A DNA stretch of 10,829 nucleotides from a virus: IMG/VR virus record IMGVR_UViG_3300045988_161343; one strand, 5' to 3'. A program made the translations under genes and the position numbers. Below the pieces are notes generated by a model. The model was not told where the DNA came from, did no database searches, and worked only from the letters and a program-made list of their open reading frames with translations. Of this stretch, positions 6,505 through 10,829 are shown piece by piece; positions within the stretch are counted from its first letter, which is position 1, and every line of letters begins with the position of its first letter.

Positions 6505-6650
6505 AAATGGGCGGTTCATTTGAGCCGCCCGATGTCCTGCACACCGGGCGGCATTTTAATTTTTTAGCATTTTGCACAATTTTTTCATGCAAATTTTGTG
6601 CATCTTGCCAATAGACAAAAATCCTGAAATGTGATATACTCTATAATGTC
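6505..6650 (+). repeat. Class-2 intergenic element, copy 3. Stem-loops at 6509-6530 and 6524-6552 share the CCGCCC segment. It also has the trail ATTTTAATTTTTTAGC, inverted repeat TGCACAA (6572-6578) / TTGTGCA (6596-6602), and promoter TAGACA (6612-6617), 17-nt spacer, TGa-TATACT (6635-6640)
   Basis: About 85% identical to copy 1 across roughly 110 bp, with the same promoter and a different, compensating stem sequence. Confidence 0.75.
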
Positions 6651-6739
6651 AAGAGAGGATAGCGATTAAAAGTGCTTGGTATCATTAGCCGGGCTACACA
6701 ACTTCCTAGGTTCGTGTGTAAAAAAAATAAAATTCCCTC

Positions 6740-6768
6740 TTGACAAACAACACCTGATGTGTTATAAT
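6740..6768 (+). promoter_or_regulatory. Class-1 promoter: TTGACA (6740-6745), 17-nt spacer, TGt-TATAAT (6763-6768), then the leader CCAGAAAGGAATTGATAAATATG
   Basis: Consensus hexamers and the conserved RBS leader before gene A1. It lies about 120 bp downstream of the class-2 promoter, so the two are tandem promoters. Confidence 0.65.
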
Positions 6769-6819
6769 TGAGTCAACAAGTGAAGGAAACACTTAAAAAC
6801 CAGAAAGGAATTGATAAAT

Positions 6820-7206
6820 ATGGAAAAGGTTAAAGCCCCCACCCGCAAGGAAATGTTCACTACTGTTTCTGACTTCCTCGCCCAGCATGATGCAGACACT
6901 GACCTGATTGATTTTGTCAATCACCAGATTGAGCTTCTGGACAACAAGAAGGAAAACAAGAAGCAGGCCAAGGAGCAGGAAGAAAACGCCGCCTATTCTG
7001 ATGCAATCTATGAGCAGATGGCATTCGAGCGTAAGTACAGCGTCGCAGAGCTGATGAAGGAGCTTCCGATGGTCAATGATTGGAACACCAACCATGAGAC
7101 CGAACTGTCGGTTCAGAAGCTCGCAAGTCTGTTGAAGCCGCTGGTCGATGGTGGCAAGGTCATTAAGACCACCGAGAAACGCAGAGTGTTCTACACCAAG
7201 GCGTGA
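6820..7206 (+). CDS. Hypothetical protein A1 (128 aa), paralog of 9099-9476, with a possible winged-helix-like C-terminus
   Basis: ATG 6820 follows the conserved leader. The C-terminal 75 aa are conserved with A2 (YS[VI]AEL[MI]KELP...QK[LM]A.LLK.LV..G.VIKTTEKRRV[FY]YTKA). GC is about 48% and C-ending codons are preferred, unlike upstream genes. Confidence 0.7.
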   Translation: MEKVKAPTRKEMFTTVSDFLAQHDADTDLIDFVNHQIELLDNKKENKKQAKEQEENAAYSDAIYEQMAFERKYSVAELMKELPMVNDWNTNHETELSVQKLASLLKPLVDGGKVIKTTEKRRVFYTKA

Positions 7207-7651: not shown

Positions 7652-7653
7652 AG

Positions 7654-7689
7654 AAAATGCTGGAAAATGAAAATTTTTCCAGCATTTTT
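7654..7689 (+). terminator. Rho-independent terminator (14-bp stem AAAATGCTGGAAAA/TTTTCCAGCATTTT, then TTTTTG)
   Basis: Perfect stem plus T-run directly after the B1 stop. Confidence 0.8.
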
Positions 7690-7735
7690 GTATAATTTAA
7701 TGAATTTTTAAGGATTTTTTGTGTATTTTTATCTA

Positions 7736-7800
7736 TTGACATTTGGGCTGCCCGGCCACGACCTAGCCGGGCAGAATTTCCAATATTTACCAGTTTTACC
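7736..7800 (+). repeat. Class-2-like element, degenerate copy 4. GC stem-loop CTGCCCGGC-CACGACCTA-GCCGGGCAG (7748-7774), then the ACCAATTTTTT segment
   Basis: The stem covaries with the other copies. Its loop CACGACCTA resembles the copy-2 loop CACGGTCCA. The downstream ACCAATTTTTT matches copy 1. Confidence 0.5.
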
Positions 7801-7920
7801 AATTTTTTTACCAAAATCTAGCTTCATTTGATTAAAGTATTAAATCCTTAAAGTGCCGCACTTTACCACATTAAAGTGTTAAAGTGTGCATAAATATTCA
7901 TTGAAAATGAATAAATATTC
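7786..7920 (+). repeat. Iteron cluster. TTTACCA repeats at 7786, 7795, 7807 and 7862. TTAAAGTG repeats at 7832, 7848, 7871 and 7879, plus an inverted copy forming the palindrome TAAAGTG-ccg-CACTTTA (7849-7865). ATAAATATTC direct repeats flank the hairpin TATTCATT-gaa-AATGAATA (7891-7920)
   Basis: Read directly from the sequence: several short direct repeats at roughly helical spacing in an AT-rich stretch. This is a candidate replication origin or complex operator. Confidence 0.55.
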
Positions 7921-7923
7921 TTC

Positions 7924-7952
7924 TTGACATTTTGGGCAAGGTGTGATAATAT
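7924..7952 (+). promoter_or_regulatory. Promoter: TTGACA (7924-7929), 17-nt spacer, TAATAT (7947-7952) with upstream TGTG. A roughly 60-nt leader follows, with the AAAGGATGG Shine-Dalgarno site
   Basis: Consensus -35 box and an A/T-rich extended -10 box directly upstream of the exonuclease gene. Confidence 0.6.
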
Positions 7953-8014
7953 ATAAGAGCAATGAGGGAGCGATGGCAAACCCTGATTGACATTATTAAA
8001 AGGATGGAAACCCT

Positions 8015-8872
8015 ATGACTAAACTTGATAAGCGTCGAAAGTATTACCTGATTCTGGATTGTGAAACTGCGACACTTCCTTATGCCGCAAAGTTTTCCGC
8101 AGATATGAAGAAGAATGTCGCAATCGCCAAGCCGCTGATTTATGATTTGGGATGGCAGATTGTGGATATTCGTGGCAAGGTCTATAAGCGTGCGTCCTAC
8201 CTCATTTCTGAAATTTTCAGTGTTCCCGCAGTTTTCAATACTGCATATTATGCAAGTAAGCGTCCGATTTATCTTGAACGTTTGAAGAATAAGGAAATCA
8301 CGCTTGCAGATTGGAACACGGCTGTTGCAGAACTGATTGAAGATTTGGACGCTGTTGAAGCCGTCGGAGCATATAACAGTATGTTCGACTTCAAAAAGGC
8401 TATTCCATTCACTGAACTTTATGTTTCCAAGCTGTATTCGCCGGATTTCTTTGAATGGGAAGTATATCAGAATAAACGATGTGAAGCAATCGCCCACGGA
8501 AGTAAGCCCCATTCGCAGACAGAATTTGAACCTGATGTTTTCCGCTTCCATGGCAAGACGTATCCGCTATTTGACTTGTGGGGTTTGTCTTGTGAACATC
8601 TGTTGAATAATCCCGACTATAAGCAGATGTGCTATGATAATGAGTGGAGAACGGCAAGTGGTAAATACTATCCGACTAATGCGGAAAAGGCATTTGCCTA
8701 TTGTTTCCAGCAGGAAGATTTTGAAGAAGCCCATACTGCAATCGAGGACGCAATTATTGAGTCTATGCTGTTCGCCCTTATTGGAGAAAAGACCAAGCAC
8801 AAGTTTGAGATGGGTATTGAATATTTTCCCTACAAAAAGTTGGGAAGATTTGACAGTGATTGGGAGCTGTAA
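8015..8872 (+). CDS. DEDDh-family (DnaQ/RNase T/DexA-like) 3'-5' exonuclease
   Basis: Exo I YLILDCETATLP carries the D-x-E pair. Exo II GAYNSMFDFKKA matches the [HY]N..FD motif. Exo III EEAHTAIEDAIIE matches the H-x-A-x-x-D-A motif, and its His makes this the DEDDh subtype. A long insert of about 120 aa lies between motifs II and III. Confidence 0.8.
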   Translation: MTKLDKRRKYYLILDCETATLPYAAKFSADMKKNVAIAKPLIYDLGWQIVDIRGKVYKRASYLISEIFSVPAVFNTAYYASKRPIYLERLKNKEITLADWNTAVAELIEDLDAVEAVGAYNSMFDFKKAIPFTELYVSKLYSPDFFEWEVYQNKRCEAIAHGSKPHSQTEFEPDVFRFHGKTYPLFDLWGLSCEHLLNNPDYKQMCYDNEWRTASGKYYPTNAEKAFAYCFQQEDFEEAHTAIEDAIIESMLFALIGEKTKHKFEMGIEYFPYKKLGRFDSDWEL

Positions 8873-9027: not shown

Positions 9028-9098
9028 ATAATTGTTCCAAGAGAGGAACACAAAATAAATAAGGGTCGCGACCTACCGCTAGAAAGGAATTGATAATT

Positions 9099-9476
9099 AT
9101 GGAAAAGAAGATTACCTATGCCCAGGCCCTGAACACCGTCCTGAACAATGAGAACATCGTCCTTGCGTCTGATGTTCGTGAGAAGCTGGAAGCTCTGCTT
9201 GTCTCTGTTTCCAAGAAGTCCGGCGAAAAGAAGGATACTGCACAGCAGGTCGAGAACGCCATGATGGTGGAGCGGATTTATCAGGAGATGGAAGCCAACC
9301 GGACTTACTCCATTGCCGAACTGATTAAGGAACTACCGGTTGTGGCTGATTTCAATGCCAACCATGAGAACGATATGTCCACGCAGAAAATGGCGAACCT
9401 GCTCAAGACCCTTGTGGAAGATGGCAGAGTGATTAAGACCACTGAAAAGCGGCGTGTCTACTACACCAAGGCATAA
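9099..9476 (+). CDS. Hypothetical protein A2 (126 aa), paralog of 6820-7206
   Basis: ATG 9099 follows the conserved leader. The track's start 9090 is a TTG inside the leader. The C-terminus ...LLKTLVEDGRVIKTTEKRRVYYTKA is nearly identical to A1. GC is high relative to the window. Confidence 0.7.
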   Translation: MEKKITYAQALNTVLNNENIVLASDVREKLEALLVSVSKKSGEKKDTAQQVENAMMVERIYQEMEANRTYSIAELIKELPVVADFNANHENDMSTQKMANLLKTLVEDGRVIKTTEKRRVYYTKA

Positions 9477-9568: not shown

Positions 9569-9931
9569 ATGTCAATGACCGTTGAAAAGTTGGCAAATTC
9601 GCTTAAAATCTCTATTGAAGAAGCCAAACAAGTTTTGGAAATGGACAAGCGAATTGATAGGGGCGAAAAGCTGTTTGAGCTGCCGCCGGAGCTTGAAGCA
9701 GGGGCAAAAAAGGCAAGACGTGCTGATCGGAAGAAAGTGGAAAATGTAAAACGGGAACGCAAGCCTGATGAAGATAAAAGGGAGTTAATCCAGTATTTGG
9801 AAAGTTCCTTAGAAGATGCCTACCCCGATTTGGATTTGGGCAATATTACCATTACAAATCCAGAACGAGAAATGGAATTTACTTACAATGGAATTAAATA
9901 CCGGTTGACCCTGATGCGTCCAAGGAAATAG
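9569..9931 (+). CDS. Hypothetical protein B2 (120 aa), paralog of 7253-7651
   Basis: AGGACGG Shine-Dalgarno before ATG 9569. ATG 9575 is an alternative start. Conserved blocks are shared with B1. A basic central region (KKARRADRKKVENVKRERKPDEDKR) suggests nucleic-acid binding. Confidence 0.65.
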   Translation: MSMTVEKLANSLKISIEEAKQVLEMDKRIDRGEKLFELPPELEAGAKKARRADRKKVENVKRERKPDEDKRELIQYLESSLEDAYPDLDLGNITITNPEREMEFTYNGIKYRLTLMRPRK

Positions 9932-9962
9932 ATGGAAGATGGAAACATCTTCCATCCTTTTT
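9931..9962 (+). terminator. Rho-independent terminator (GATGGAAGATG-gaaa-CATCTTCCATC, then CTTTTTGG)
   Basis: An 11-bp perfect stem plus T-run overlapping the B2 stop codon. Confidence 0.8.
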
Positions 9963-10110
9963 GGAATCATAATTGGAAAATATTGGAACAGATGGTAATT
10001 TCAGCCGGTCGTCACTGGAAGTGATGACCGGAATTCTAGAAAAAACCCTCATATGGCAATTTTTTGTTCAATCTAGCAGCCTCTCATATGGCGCATGTTT
10101 TTCCCGAAAC

Positions 10111-10587: not shown

Positions 10588-10619
10588 GAAAAGGGCATAT
10601 GCCCTTTTCTTATTTTTTT
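10588..10619 (+). terminator. Rho-independent terminator (GAAAAGGGCAT/ATGCCCTTTTC, then TTATTTTTTTA)
   Basis: A palindromic stem centred on CATATG, followed by a T-run. Confidence 0.8.
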
Positions 10620-10643
10620 ATTTTAGCTGGAAAATTTTGGAAA

Positions 10644-10680
10644 GTCAAATTTGACTTTTATAAAAAAATATGATATAATA
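10644..10680 (+). promoter_or_regulatory. Promoter: TTGACT (10651-10656, inside the palindrome GTCAAAtTTGAC), spacer, TGa-TATAAT (10675-10680)
   Basis: A consensus-like -35 box with an extended -10 box, followed by the Shine-Dalgarno site AGGGTGGTGA and ATG 10721. Confidence 0.55.
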
Positions 10681-10720
10681 TTAAAAAAAGATATAATTGC
10701 ATTAGGGTGGTGAATAATTG

Positions 10721-10829
10721 ATGTCGGTTGATATGGAGAATAGGGGTACCACTGATACAATAGGGGCACAGCACTACTCCACTTTAATACAATTTTTATC
10801 AATTTTACTCCACTTTAATACAATTTTTA
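10721..10829 (+). CDS. Possible 5' end of a gene running off the window. Its hydrophobic tail overlaps the tandem repeat
   Basis: Good Shine-Dalgarno site (GGGTGGTGA, 8 nt) and an open frame to the window end (MSVDMENRGTTDTIGAQHYSTLIQFLSILLHFNTIF...). The embedded 31-bp-period repeat is not a multiple of 3, which argues against coding. Confidence 0.3.
   Translation, partial: MSVDMENRGTTDTIGAQHYSTLIQFLSILLHFNTIF
10775..10829 (+). repeat. Tandem direct repeat TACTCCACTTTAATACAATTTTTA (two copies, period 31 bp), truncated by the window end
   Basis: An exact 24-nt repeat at 10775-10798 and 10806-10829. An AATAGGGG dyad lies at 10739 and 10759. Confidence 0.6.

What the first reader, a model, noticed from the sequence alone, without database searches (positions are those of the whole stretch)
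7786..7920. Iteron-rich AT-rich block upstream of the exonuclease gene, a candidate replication origin or multi-site operator
Within about 135 bp there are four TTTACCA repeats, four direct TTAAAGTG repeats and one inverted copy forming TAAAGTG-ccg-CACTTTA. A pair of ATAAATATTC direct repeats flanks a short hairpin. Clusters of short direct repeats in AT-rich DNA are the hallmark of iteron-type origins bound by a Rep or initiator protein, and of phage operator arrays. The block sits between a class-2-like GC hairpin and the promoter of the DEDDh exonuclease. It also lies between the two A/B modules, whose A proteins look like winged-helix DNA binders and are plausible iteron-binding candidates.
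Basis: partly seen in the sequence, partly recalled or inferred. Interest (0 to 1): 0.55.

Follow-up and report, generated by a model that had tools for sequence, protein, structure and literature searches.

The report
Host repressor sites upstream of phage promoter
The repeat-rich block is probably not a replication origin: it is one copy of the phage's standard terminator-promoter cassette that carries binding-site sequences for the host's histidine repressor (and probably its arginine repressor), which suggests that gut phages tie their early genes to, or interfere with, the host's amino-acid sensing.

Summary
The repeats are real, denser than chance, and conserved in relatives. They fall into three parts.

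1. The GC hairpin and the three TTTACCA repeats belong to a dispersed cassette: hairpin, phased T-tracts, then a sigma-A promoter. It occurs 5 times in the window and 56 times in 11 related loci, always on the transcribed strand, with strong covariation in the stem. It resembles the PeSL cassettes of T4-type phages.

2. The TAAAGTG boxes match the published operator of HisR, the TrpR-family histidine repressor of Firmicutes (cacTTTAnnnnnnTAAAgtg). Positions 7859-7878 match 14 of 14 specified bases, with extra half-sites in 8-bp register. The same composite sits on promoters of hisZ, hisG, hisR and amino-acid transporter genes in Clostridia genomes. It is also dispersed (up to 22 sites in 15 kb) in sister phages, and lies at the inverted terminal repeats of unrelated phi29-like phages. 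No phage-encoded HisR was found.

3. The ATAAATATTC pair forms two 18-bp ARG-box-like palindromes 3 bp apart, abutting the -35.

Evidence against an origin: no GC-skew inflection, no DnaA-box cluster, no outstanding DNA-unwinding element, no nearby replication genes, and the array is deleted in close relatives. Protein binding itself is inferred, not shown.

The parts
7653..7689 (+). Intrinsic terminator of the upstream gene B1 (14-15-bp stem followed by a T run)
7690..7747 (+). T-tract stretch with an orphan -35 hexamer (TTGACA, 7736-7741, with no -10 downstream) and the cATTTGGG that opens the cassette
   Evidence: In L001/L002 this part is replaced by other sequence, and the junction lies exactly at the hairpin.
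7748..7774 (+). GC hairpin CTGCCCGGC / GCCGGGCAG, followed by a conserved AATTT. It is a member of a dispersed hairpin family and is probably a transcription attenuator or insulator.
   Evidence: Covariance model R1 finds 56 copies in 11 loci, all on the + strand, 5 of them in the window. 97% of cells are paired and 9 of 9 pairs show changes on both sides, with 0 of 500 shuffles reaching this. RNA fold -21.9 kcal/mol, z = -3.6.
7775..7819 (+). Phased T-tract segment of the cassette. It contains the three TTTACCA copies at 7786, 7795 and 7807.
   Evidence: It aligns with the same segment of the other cassettes (ATTTTAGATTTTTAGCATTTTCACCAATTTTTT). T runs recur about every 10-11 nt.
7820..7855 (.). 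HisR-like unit 1: aGCTTCA-tttgat-TAAAGTA (7820-7839, 4 mismatches to the consensus), plus 8-bp-phased half-sites TTAAATCC (7840-7847) and TTAAAGTG (7848-7855)
   Evidence: The left part is retained even in the truncated variants L318 and L321.
7859..7886 (.). HisR-type operator unit 2: CACTTTA-ccacat-TAAAGTG (7859-7878) matches cacTTTAnnnnnnTAAAgtg at 14 of 14 specified positions. An overlapping site shifted by 8 bp (7867-7886) has 1 mismatch, created by the extra half-site TTAAAGTG at 7879-7886.
   Evidence: It is the only perfect match in the window and in 30 kb of the source genome, against 0.02-0.04 expected. The consensus comes from PMC9413887.
7885..7923 (.). Tandem ARG-box-like pair: TGTGCATAAATATTCATT (7885-7902), a 3-bp spacer, then AATGAATAAATATTCTTC (7906-7923). 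The pair spans 39 bp and abuts the -35. It may also act as an AT-rich UP element.
   Evidence: These are the two best matches in the window to TNTGAATWWWWATTCANW, with 1 and 2 mismatches. The layout agrees with PMC4381063 and PMC5291005. The pair is kept with a 2-3-bp spacer in relatives and recurs in other phage lineages.
7924..7952 (+). Sigma-A-type promoter of the block: TTGACA, 17 nt, TGn, TAATAT. The spacer contains a conserved GGGCAA.
   Evidence: In L003, L005 and L006 it is followed by about 100 nt and a second promoter before the exonuclease gene.
7953..8014 (+). 5' leader of the exonuclease mRNA, with a conserved stem CAATGAGGG..CCCTGATTG
   Evidence: seen by eye; covariation not counted.
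8015..8872 (+). Exonuclease gene. DEDDh-type motifs (DCE, FD, H-x4-D) were read from the sequence. It matches PHROG 20187 and is annotated 'exodeoxyribonuclease' in Enterococcus phage H1.

Best explanation
The block is the regulatory region of one early transcription unit of a roughly 185-kb gut phage. Its frame is the phage's standard dispersed cassette. That cassette consists of the upstream gene's terminator, a GC hairpin with a conserved AATTT tail, about 58 nt of helically phased T-tracts, and a sigma-A promoter with an extended -10.

In this copy about 90 extra bases lie between the T-tracts and the -35. They hold two sets of sites that match host amino-acid repressor operators.

(i) Two HisR-type units lie 39 bp apart. 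One is a perfect 20-bp HisR palindrome, and each is extended by half-sites in 8-bp register. This is the register in which TrpR-family dimers bind in tandem (from my own knowledge: Lawson and Carey 1993).

(ii) A pair of 18-bp ARG-box-like palindromes, 3 bp apart, touches the -35.

Inferred mechanism: in amino-acid-replete cells, host HisR-histidine dimers occupy 7820-7886, and possibly an ArgR/AhrC-arginine hexamer occupies 7885-7923. This could set the activity of promoter 7924 according to amino-acid supply, with the ARG-like pair covering the UP-element zone next to the -35. It could also soak up host repressors as phage DNA multiplies.

Shown here: the sequence matches, their conservation, their distribution, and the cassette structure.

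Inferred: which protein binds, and the sign of the effect on the promoter.
For: Cassette:
- 56 copies in 11 loci, all on the transcribed strand.
- The stem covaries.
- The distance from the cassette start to the -35 is a constant 95 nt in plain copies, against 185 or 218 nt here.
- Recombination junctions lie at the hairpin.
- Its properties parallel those of PeSL cassettes.

HisR:
- The published consensus is cacTTTAnnnnnnTAAAgtg, with histidine-dependent binding shown in vitro for R. gnavus HisR.
- 7859-7878 matches 14 of 14 specified positions, against 0.04 sites expected per window.
- The composite of palindrome plus extra half-site gave more than 120 hits in genomes, mostly Clostridia.
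- 51 of 120 loci carry hisZ, hisG, hisR or a family-3 solute-binding (SBP_bac_3) transporter gene. There the site starts 1-22 nt after the -10.
- TAAAG cores are more conserved than their surroundings.
- The motif is hugely enriched in sister phages: 13, 10 and 22 sites against 0.01-0.06 expected.
- It lies at the inverted terminal repeats of phi29-like phages that share no protein with the large phages.
- No HisR homologue was found in any phage locus held, and only one IMG/VR contig encodes one.

ARG-like pair.
Against: - No binding experiment exists for these sites.
- The host is unidentified. There is only a binning hint towards Acutalibacteraceae and other Clostridia.
- In bacteria HisR sites overlap the transcription start. 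In the phages they lie mostly 26-150 nt upstream of the -35, so simple repression by occlusion does not apply.
- Sister phages carry a site in nearly every intergenic region. That pattern would also fit a phage-encoded regulator with the same specificity that my searches could not see.
- Only 30 kb of the 185-kb source genome could be read.
- Unit 1 is a weak match (4 mismatches).
- The array is dispensable, being deleted in L318/L319 and L321-L323.
- The ARG-like boxes are AT-rich. Individually they are only modestly above chance: 3 matches at 2 or fewer mismatches against 1.1 expected.
Confidence: 0.6

Rival explanations
1. The boxes are operators of a phage-encoded regulator. It could be a divergent TrpR-like protein, an A-family winged-helix protein, or another early protein. 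Its motif would coincide with, or derive from, the HisR motif, and it would switch early promoters globally.
For: - Sister phages carry 10-22 sites per 10-15 kb, placed 26-150 nt upstream of most early promoters and co-oriented with transcription.
- A-family genes co-occur with the array in the window clade, L217, L341 and L346.
- The C-terminal part of the A proteins shows weak winged-helix similarity.
Against: - The phi29-like phages with the same composite share no detectable protein with the large phages.
- No Trp_repressor-like protein was found in the window or in any phage locus held.
- A-family genes are also found in loci without the array.
- The motif is identical, including the extra half-site, to that at bacterial his promoters.
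Confidence: 0.17
2. The block is an iteron-type replication origin. An initiator would bind the short repeats and open the neighbouring AT-rich DNA, helped by transcription from promoter 7924.
For: - Clustered short repeats lie in AT-rich non-coding DNA next to a strong promoter.
- The strict composite is single-copy in each of five or six complete-size relatives.
- In phi29-like phages the motif lies at the genome ends, where replication starts.
Against: - The TTTACCA repeats belong to a cassette present 5 times per window.
- The boxes are 8 bp long and match a known repressor operator.
- There is no GC-skew inflection.
- There is no DnaA-box cluster and no outstanding unwinding element.
- There are no replication genes within 10 kb on either side.
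- The array is truncated or absent in close relatives.
- There are dozens of copies per genome in sister phages.
Confidence: 0.07
3. The extra 90 bases are a non-functional scar. They would be slipped duplications of promoter-spacer sequence (AAATGTG-like) and recombination debris between cassettes.
For: - Unit 1 lies in register with the -35 and spacer of TAGACA-type cassette promoters. AAATCCT lies at offset 102-103 in three cassettes.
- Deletions between boxes occur, as in L318.
- Cassettes are recombination hot spots.
Against: - TAAAG cores are significantly more conserved than their flanks.
- The arrangement is kept in the distant L217, L363 and L433.
- An exact match to an independent published consensus is very unlikely in debris.
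Confidence: 0.08
4. The inverted repeats act as RNA or single-stranded-DNA hairpins, such as a small RNA, a processing signal or a cruciform, rather than as duplex protein sites.
For: - The fold of 7826-7925 is more stable than shuffles (z = -4.3).
- One G-C to A-T change in the TAAAGTG/CACTTTA pair is compensated in L324.
Against: - No promoter reads into the array, and two terminator-type hairpins precede it.
- T-to-C changes in the direct boxes are not compensated.
- L004 and L217 break the pairing, and the spacer between the arms varies from 3 to 5 nt.
- There is no Rfam match.
Confidence: 0.04

Closest known systems
HisR operators of Firmicutes (TrpR-family histidine repressor, YerC; Ashniev et al. 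2022, PMC9413887)
   Same: The same 20-bp palindrome, cacTTTA-N6-TAAAgtg. The same frequent extra half-site in 8-bp register as at Clostridia hisZ, hisG, hisR and transporter promoters.
   Different: - The sites are in a virulent-type phage genome, in front of an exonuclease gene, not a his gene.
- They lie about 37-100 nt upstream of the -35 instead of on the transcription start.
- They are arranged as two units 39 bp apart.
- Sister phages carry up to 1.5 sites per kb, against about three sites in a bacterial genome (R. gnavus).
PeSL (promoter-early stem-loop) cassettes of T4-type phages RB49 and phi1 (Arbiol et al. 2010, PMC2839356)
   Same: Both are dispersed intergenic cassettes. Each has a strong sigma-70-type promoter, an AT-rich upstream region and a stem-loop that can attenuate upstream transcription. 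Both sit in front of small genes of unknown function and at recombination junctions.
   Different: - The phage group is unrelated and has Firmicutes-type promoters.
- The stem-loop sits at a fixed position about 58 nt upstream of the -35.
- The loop-closing C-G pair and the AATTT tail are conserved.
- Mini-circles were not tested.
ARG operators of ArgR/AhrC
   Same: Two 18-bp imperfect palindromes matching TNTGAATWWWWATTCANW, joined by a 3-bp spacer, 39 bp in all, next to a promoter.
   Different: They are not at an arginine gene. The third position of TGnAT varies among relatives. Binding is untested, and the segment could equally be a plain UP element.
Host-regulator sites in phage genomes, such as the Spo0A boxes at phi29 early promoters and LexA boxes in temperate phages (from my own knowledge)
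   Same: A phage borrows the operator of a host global regulator to couple its early promoters to the host's physiological state.
   Different: The regulator here would be a biosynthetic amino-acid repressor. I found no report of HisR sites in phages in the library searched.
Iteron origins (lambda ori, plasmid Rep iterons, lactococcal phage ori regions)
   Same: Clustered short repeats in AT-rich non-coding DNA near early genes.
   Different: Unit length, copy number per genome, lack of an adjacent initiator gene, lack of skew or DnaA signals, and dispensability (see the membership test).

Membership tests
HisR (TrpR-family) operator | 20-bp palindrome cacTTTA-N6-TAAAgtg | tested here: met
   7859-7878 matches 14 of 14 specified positions. 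7867-7886 has 1 mismatch and 7820-7839 has 4. Consensus from PMC9413887.
HisR (TrpR-family) operator | Lies in the promoter region of histidine biosynthesis or transport genes, or of hisR | tested here: not met
   The downstream gene is a phage exonuclease. The site is upstream of the -35, not on the transcription start as in the bacterial loci.
HisR (TrpR-family) operator | Bound by HisR in the presence of L-histidine | not testable with these tools
   Needs fluorescence polarisation, EMSA or ChIP.
HisR (TrpR-family) operator | The host encodes hisR | tested here: inconclusive
   The host is unknown. Relatives are binned with Acutalibacteraceae and other Clostridia MAGs. 16 of the Clostridia-rich loci hold hisR next to such a site. 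HisR is present in 395 of 626 Firmicutes genomes.
PeSL-like promoter/stem-loop cassette | Repeated intergenic motif with a consensus sigma-70-type promoter and an AT-rich upstream region | tested here: met
PeSL-like promoter/stem-loop cassette | Stable stem-loop within the cassette | tested here: met
   97% of cells paired, 9 of 9 pairs with compensatory changes. Folds. Terminator activity itself was not tested; on average only 3.6 T occur in the first 8 nt after the stem.
PeSL-like promoter/stem-loop cassette | Homology to the T4-type PeSL sequences, or a T4-type phage | tested here: not met
   The phage group is different (Herelleviridae-like HAD-exonuclease synteny). The likeness is functional only.
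ARG operator (ArgR/AhrC) | Pair of 18-bp imperfect palindromes matching the ARG box, with a 2-3-bp spacer | tested here: met
   7885-7902 has 1 mismatch and 7906-7923 has 2-3, with a 3-bp spacer. Definition.
ARG operator (ArgR/AhrC) | Controls arginine metabolism genes and is bound by ArgR-arginine | not tested
Binding needs experiment.
Iteron-type replication origin | Several 17-22-bp iterons in helical phase, bound by a cognate initiator encoded nearby | tested here: not met
   The units are 7-8 bp. No initiator or replication gene lies within 10 kb on either side.
Iteron-type replication origin | Adjacent DNA-unwinding element, DnaA boxes, or a skew inflection | tested here: not met
   The block ranks about 13th for low duplex stability. 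There is one isolated 1-mismatch DnaA box that is not conserved. Cumulative GC skew rises straight through the block.
Iteron-type replication origin | Kept in all close relatives as a unique essential site | tested here: not met
   The array is truncated in L318/L319 and L321-L323, and absent in L330-L333. The motif is multi-copy in sister phages.

The most novel reading that the evidence does not exclude
Virulent-type gut and rumen phages of two unrelated kinds carry arrays of operators for host amino-acid repressors: HisR and perhaps ArgR. One kind is large phages with a Herelleviridae-like HAD-exonuclease gene pair. The other is small phi29-like phages, which have the sites in their terminal repeats. 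Site density reaches about 1.5 per kb.

The arrays would either make early transcription depend on the host's histidine and arginine status, or work as a repressor sponge. In the sponge model, replicating phage DNA titrates HisR and ArgR and so derepresses host amino-acid synthesis and uptake for the phage's benefit.
Probability: 0.35. Interest if true: 0.78.

Novelty: new variant of a known kind. Interest (0 to 1): 0.6.

Why it matters
If host HisR, and perhaps ArgR, really binds these sites, this is a simple and widespread way for lytic gut phages to read or rewire the amino-acid economy of their Clostridia hosts.

- It would give a sequence-based handle for predicting hosts, since lineage-specific HisR motifs could be matched to phages.
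- It would give a ready experimental system: a known repressor, a known co-repressor and a 70-bp DNA.
- It would help explain the highly repetitive intergenic regions of a large group of uncultured phages.

The work also shows that 'iteron-like' repeat clusters in phage early regions can be borrowed host operators rather than origins.

Tried and rejected
- Rfam scans of the window and of 13 loci gave nothing relevant.
- Megablast and blastn of the window or block against the phage and plasmid collections gave no match.
- An exact search for the window-end repeat in IMG/VR gave no match.
- The 14-mer and 15-mer scans TTAAAGTGTTAAAG and TAAATCCYTAAAGTG returned mostly unrelated hits. They only later proved partly meaningful.
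- The first genome scan, with the strict 28-nt block pattern, found nothing.
- The DnaA-box, duplex-stability and GC-skew tests for an origin were negative.
- The AlphaFold model of protein A1 was too poor (pLDDT 50) for a fold search. PDB sequence searches with single proteins were empty.
- Co-occurrence of window genes with the array was uninformative, because the whole clade shares them.
- The resemblance of RCTTYA to the T4 MotA box, readings as an alternative-sigma promoter, and CodY, CIRCE, parS, NrdR and PlcR boxes were considered from memory and dropped. Spacing or sequence did not fit.
- The idea that the window-end 31-bp repeats carry the same boxes was dropped, because they are not conserved in L001 or L007.
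- Literature searches on the raw motif returned only primer matches.
Full report
**Setting.** The window is 100% identical to positions 140,300-151,128 of a 184,981-bp metagenome contig (ENA ERZ27250463, k119_68296). All its genes are on the + strand. About eleven near-consensus TTGACA-17-TGnTATAAT promoters and many terminators divide it into small units. The gene content is a PcfJ-like protein, an AbrB/MazE-like protein, a HAD-type nucleotidase, a nucleoside deoxyribosyltransferase, an exonuclease, and two paralogous A/B gene pairs. The HAD-exonuclease synteny is shared with 138-kb Enterococcus phages. This marks the window as the early region of a large virulent-type phage. Sixty-six related loci were fetched from IMG/VR, and more from metagenomes.

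**Observation.** The one correction is that the fourth 'TTAAAGTG' is TTAAAGTA at 7832. The block holds 16 excess repeated 7-mers against 2.4 in dinucleotide shuffles, and none of 5000 shuffles reached 16. TAAAGTG and TTTACCA each occur 6 times in the window against about 2 expected. The block is conserved in the close relatives L001-L007.

**Part 1: a dispersed cassette.**
- Printing the sequence upstream of every promoter showed that the GC hairpin and the T-rich stretch with the TTTACCA copies are not unique. The window holds the same module at about 2090, 3891, 6517, 7740 and 9997.
- The module reads cATTTGAG, a 9-10-bp GC stem, AATTT, then T runs recurring about every 10-11 nt (ATTTTAGATTTTTAGCATTTTCACCAATTTTTT...TTTGTGCA), then the -35.
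- A covariance model finds 56 copies in 11 loci, all on the transcribed strand.
- The stem is 97% paired, and all nine pairs show changes on both sides. None of 500 shuffles reached this, and slid controls gave 32-39% pairing.
- In plain copies the -35 lies exactly 95 nt from the cassette start. In the finding's copy it lies at 185 nt (window, L005) or 218 nt (L003, L006).
- In L001 and L002 the sequence left of the hairpin is replaced, with the junction exactly at the stem. Promoters and leaders are also shuffled between units.
- The closest described analogue is the PeSL cassette of T4-type phages: a strong early promoter, an AT-rich upstream region, and a stem-loop attenuator that drives modular shuffling.
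- So three of the four TTTACCA copies are this clade's version of the phased T-tracts. The fourth overlaps the CACTTTA box by chance and is not conserved.

**Part 2: the TAAAGTG boxes.**
- The extra roughly 90 nt contain 8-bp boxes nTAAAGyr. The TAAAG cores are invariant at 23 of 25 positions across relatives, against 70 of 124 for the rest of the block (p = 4e-4).
- A scan for the R3-R4 pair showed the same composite in unrelated viral contigs: one inverted box, 5 nt, then two or three direct boxes.
- Read this way, the block holds two such units 39 bp apart, starting at 7820 and 7859.
There the composite starts 1-22 nt after the -10 of TTGACA-17-TATAAT promoters.
- The genes behind those promoters, by Pfam match, are hisZ (tRNA-synt_His), hisG, family-3 solute-binding (SBP_bac_3) transporter genes and Trp_repressor-family genes.
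- 51 of the 120 loci hold such a gene, and 16 hold the repressor gene itself.
- This is the regulon of HisR (YerC). Its published Firmicutes consensus is cacTTTAnnnnnnTAAAgtg. Its binding to a 20-bp site was shown in vitro to need L-histidine (PMC9413887).
- Window 7859-7878 (CACTTTAccacatTAAAGTG) matches all 14 specified positions. It is the only such site in the window and in 30 kb of the source genome, against 0.02-0.04 expected.
- 7867-7886 is an overlapping site shifted by 8 bp with one mismatch. This is the register of tandem TrpR-family binding (my own knowledge).

**Distribution of the HisR motif in phages.**
- Sister large phages with HAD, exonuclease and A-family genes carry 13 sites in 9.6 kb (L346), 10 in 14.4 kb (L341) and 22 in 14.8 kb (L335). 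The expected counts are 0.01-0.06.
- These sites often come in pairs 41-44 bp apart. They are co-oriented with transcription and lie mostly 26-150 nt upstream of the next -35.
- Three small phages (L348, L343, L122/L133) encode a protein-primed-type DNA polymerase B. They carry the composite within the first 10-150 or 60-390 nt of both inverted terminal repeats, upstream of inward-facing early promoters. They share no detectable protein with the large phages.
- No HisR homologue is encoded in any phage locus held. A profile-guided scan found only one in all of IMG/VR. None of the 20 window proteins matches the Trp_repressor family.
- The most economical reading is therefore a host factor, HisR. 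A phage-encoded regulator with the same specificity is not excluded, because only 30 kb of the 185-kb genome could be read.

**Part 3: the ATAAATATTC pair.**
- Read as 18-mers, 7885-7902 (TGTGCATAAATATTCATT) and 7906-7923 (AATGAATAAATATTCTTC) are the two best matches in the window to the ARG box TNTGAATWWWWATTCANW, with 1 and 2 mismatches. All other hits have 3 (consensus).
- They are 3 bp apart and span 39 bp, which is the canonical layout of ArgR operators. They end at the -35.
- Relatives keep the pair with a 2-3-bp spacer, although the third base of TGnAT varies.
- Similar pairs follow HisR-type boxes in L363 and L433. They also occur in L019, L217, L394 and L401, and after the exonuclease gene of Enterococcus phage H1.
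- This assignment is weaker than the HisR one. The boxes are AT-rich, single-box enrichment is modest, and the segment could simply be an UP element.

**Tests of the origin idea.**
- Cumulative GC skew rises through the block with no inflection, both in the window and in 30 kb of the source genome. It turns only where gene orientation turns.
- There is no perfect DnaA box. The one 1-mismatch box at 7885 is not conserved.
- The block is about the 13th least stable 50- or 100-nt stretch. The least stable DNA lies at 10,604-10,703.
- No replication gene lies within 10 kb on either side.
- The array is dispensable. L318 and L319 (exonuclease 87% identical) have lost everything from R2 to R4 but keep the cassette, the ARG-like pair and the promoter. 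L321-L323 (82%) keep only the first box and TTAAATCCCTAAA. L330-L333 (77-69%) have no cassette at all between the B gene and the exonuclease gene.
- More distant relatives (L008, L010) have a plain cassette at this position.

**Hairpin or small-RNA reading.** T-to-C changes in the direct boxes are not compensated. L004 and L217 break the pairing, and one compensated change occurs in L324. No promoter reads into the array, and Rfam has no match. The functional palindrome is the other one, CACTTTA-N6-TAAAGTG.

**A proteins.** A1 and A2 are paralogues (58% identity over the C-terminal 86 residues). They belong to a multi-copy family spread over many of these phages. A family profile gives only sub-threshold hits to winged-helix domains: the Hop2 winged-helix domain at E = 0.018, and the Pfam families HTH_20, TrpB-like TrmB and MarR_2. 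The structure model was unusable. Nothing ties the family to the boxes.

**Mechanism: what is shown and what is inferred.**
- Shown: the cassette anatomy with its covarying hairpin; the exact HisR-consensus site with phased half-sites; the conserved ARG-like pair; the distribution of these motifs in phages and at bacterial his promoters; and the absence of origin signatures.
- Inferred: that host HisR-histidine, and possibly ArgR-arginine, occupies 7820-7923. Also inferred is the consequence of that occupancy. It could tune promoter 7924 to amino-acid supply, with the ARG-like pair covering the zone just upstream of the -35. It could instead titrate the host repressors as phage DNA accumulates.
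- The upstream position of the phage sites, in contrast to their position on the transcription start in bacteria, argues against simple occlusion. The sign of the effect remains open.

**Verdict.** The origin interpretation is not supported. The operator interpretation is supported at the sequence level, but for host amino-acid repressors rather than the A proteins. HisR operators and promoter/stem-loop cassettes are known kinds. Their combination in phage genomes, and the massive enrichment of HisR-type sites in two unrelated phage groups, has not been described in the literature searched.

Noticed in passing
window 10775-10829, continuing in L313 10584-10680: A 31-bp tandem repeat of 3.1 copies (TACTCCACTTTAATACAATTTTTATCAATTT) lies beside the least stable, most AT-rich DNA of the window (10647-10696). 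It sits at the switch from + strand early genes to - strand genes. One 185,023-bp assembly ends exactly here. The repeat is not conserved in L001 or L007. On sequence features alone it looks more like iterons plus an unwinding element than the block studied.
   Followed up: partly
window 7953-8014 and 6779-6795; 5' leaders in L003-L066: The mRNA leaders just after the early promoters carry conserved purine-rich hairpins. One type is CAATGAGGGAGCGATGGCAAACCCTGATTG, in front of the exonuclease gene. The other is AAGTGAAGGAAACACTT, in front of A1 and of the exonuclease genes of rumen relatives. By eye, the stems change on both sides among relatives. They may be 5' stabiliser or regulatory elements. 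There is no Rfam match.
   Followed up: partly
window 6612-6768; L003, L005 and L006 upstream of the exonuclease gene: Tandem promoters are separated by about 100 nt of non-coding sequence that starts with ATAATGTCAAGAGAGG. The same layout recurs in many cassettes of relatives. It could be a short RNA or a long leader.
   Followed up: no
L315 4191-6453 (source genome, about 5 kb upstream of the window); composite at L315:4363: A 2.2-kb stretch has no called genes and no tRNAs. It contains a degenerate second copy of the block (CGCTTCA-cttga-CTAAAGTG-TTAAAGTC) upstream of a promoter paralogous to the one at 7924.
   Followed up: partly
L348 (11.5 kb), L343 (14.2 kb), L122 and L133 (two ends of a 15.6-kb contig): These are small phi29-like phages (protein-primed-type polymerase B) with long inverted terminal repeats. 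The repeats carry HisR-type composites and, in L343 and L340, seven tandem TTAAAGTG copies. The L343 contig ends still carry Nextera adaptor sequence.
   Followed up: partly
L001 about 9150-9300 and L007 about 9900-10050 (- strand), downstream of the window's end: A GIY-YIG-type homing-endonuclease-like reading frame has an in-frame TAG inside the GIY...YIG motif region. It is either a pseudogene or a sign of stop-codon reassignment in part of these genomes.
   Followed up: no
L191 8028-8060 (Enterococcus phage H1, OP534061.1); L019 9199; L217 10852; L394 and L401: Tandem ARG-box-like pairs (TGAAT-WWWW-ATTCA twice, 20-22 bp apart) recur in the early regions of several other phage lineages. One lies just after the exonuclease gene of a cultured Enterococcus phage.
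   Followed up: partly
L363, L428, L469, L383, L394, L401 (contigs filed under bacterial MAGs): These contigs are recorded as parts of Acutalibacteraceae, Clostridia or Christensenellales MAGs. They encode homologues of the window's HAD, exonuclease, A, B, AbrB-like and deoxyribosyltransferase proteins. They are therefore relatives of this phage binned with bacteria, which gives a weak hint at the host.
   Followed up: partly
window 6811-7206 and 9090-9476; L009, L010, L014, L016, L017, L020, L057, L062, L217, L341, L346: The A proteins belong to a large multi-copy family of 113-151-residue proteins, with up to three copies per locus. They have a variable helical N-terminal part and a conserved C-terminal S-x-QK...LV..G.V.K...KGR..Y module that weakly resembles winged-helix domains.
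   Followed up: partly
L332 6297-6876: In a relative with a 71% identical exonuclease, a DnaD_N/HTH_36 (replication-initiator-like) gene lies 2.4 kb downstream of the exonuclease gene. No such gene lies within 10 kb of the block in the source genome.
   Followed up: no
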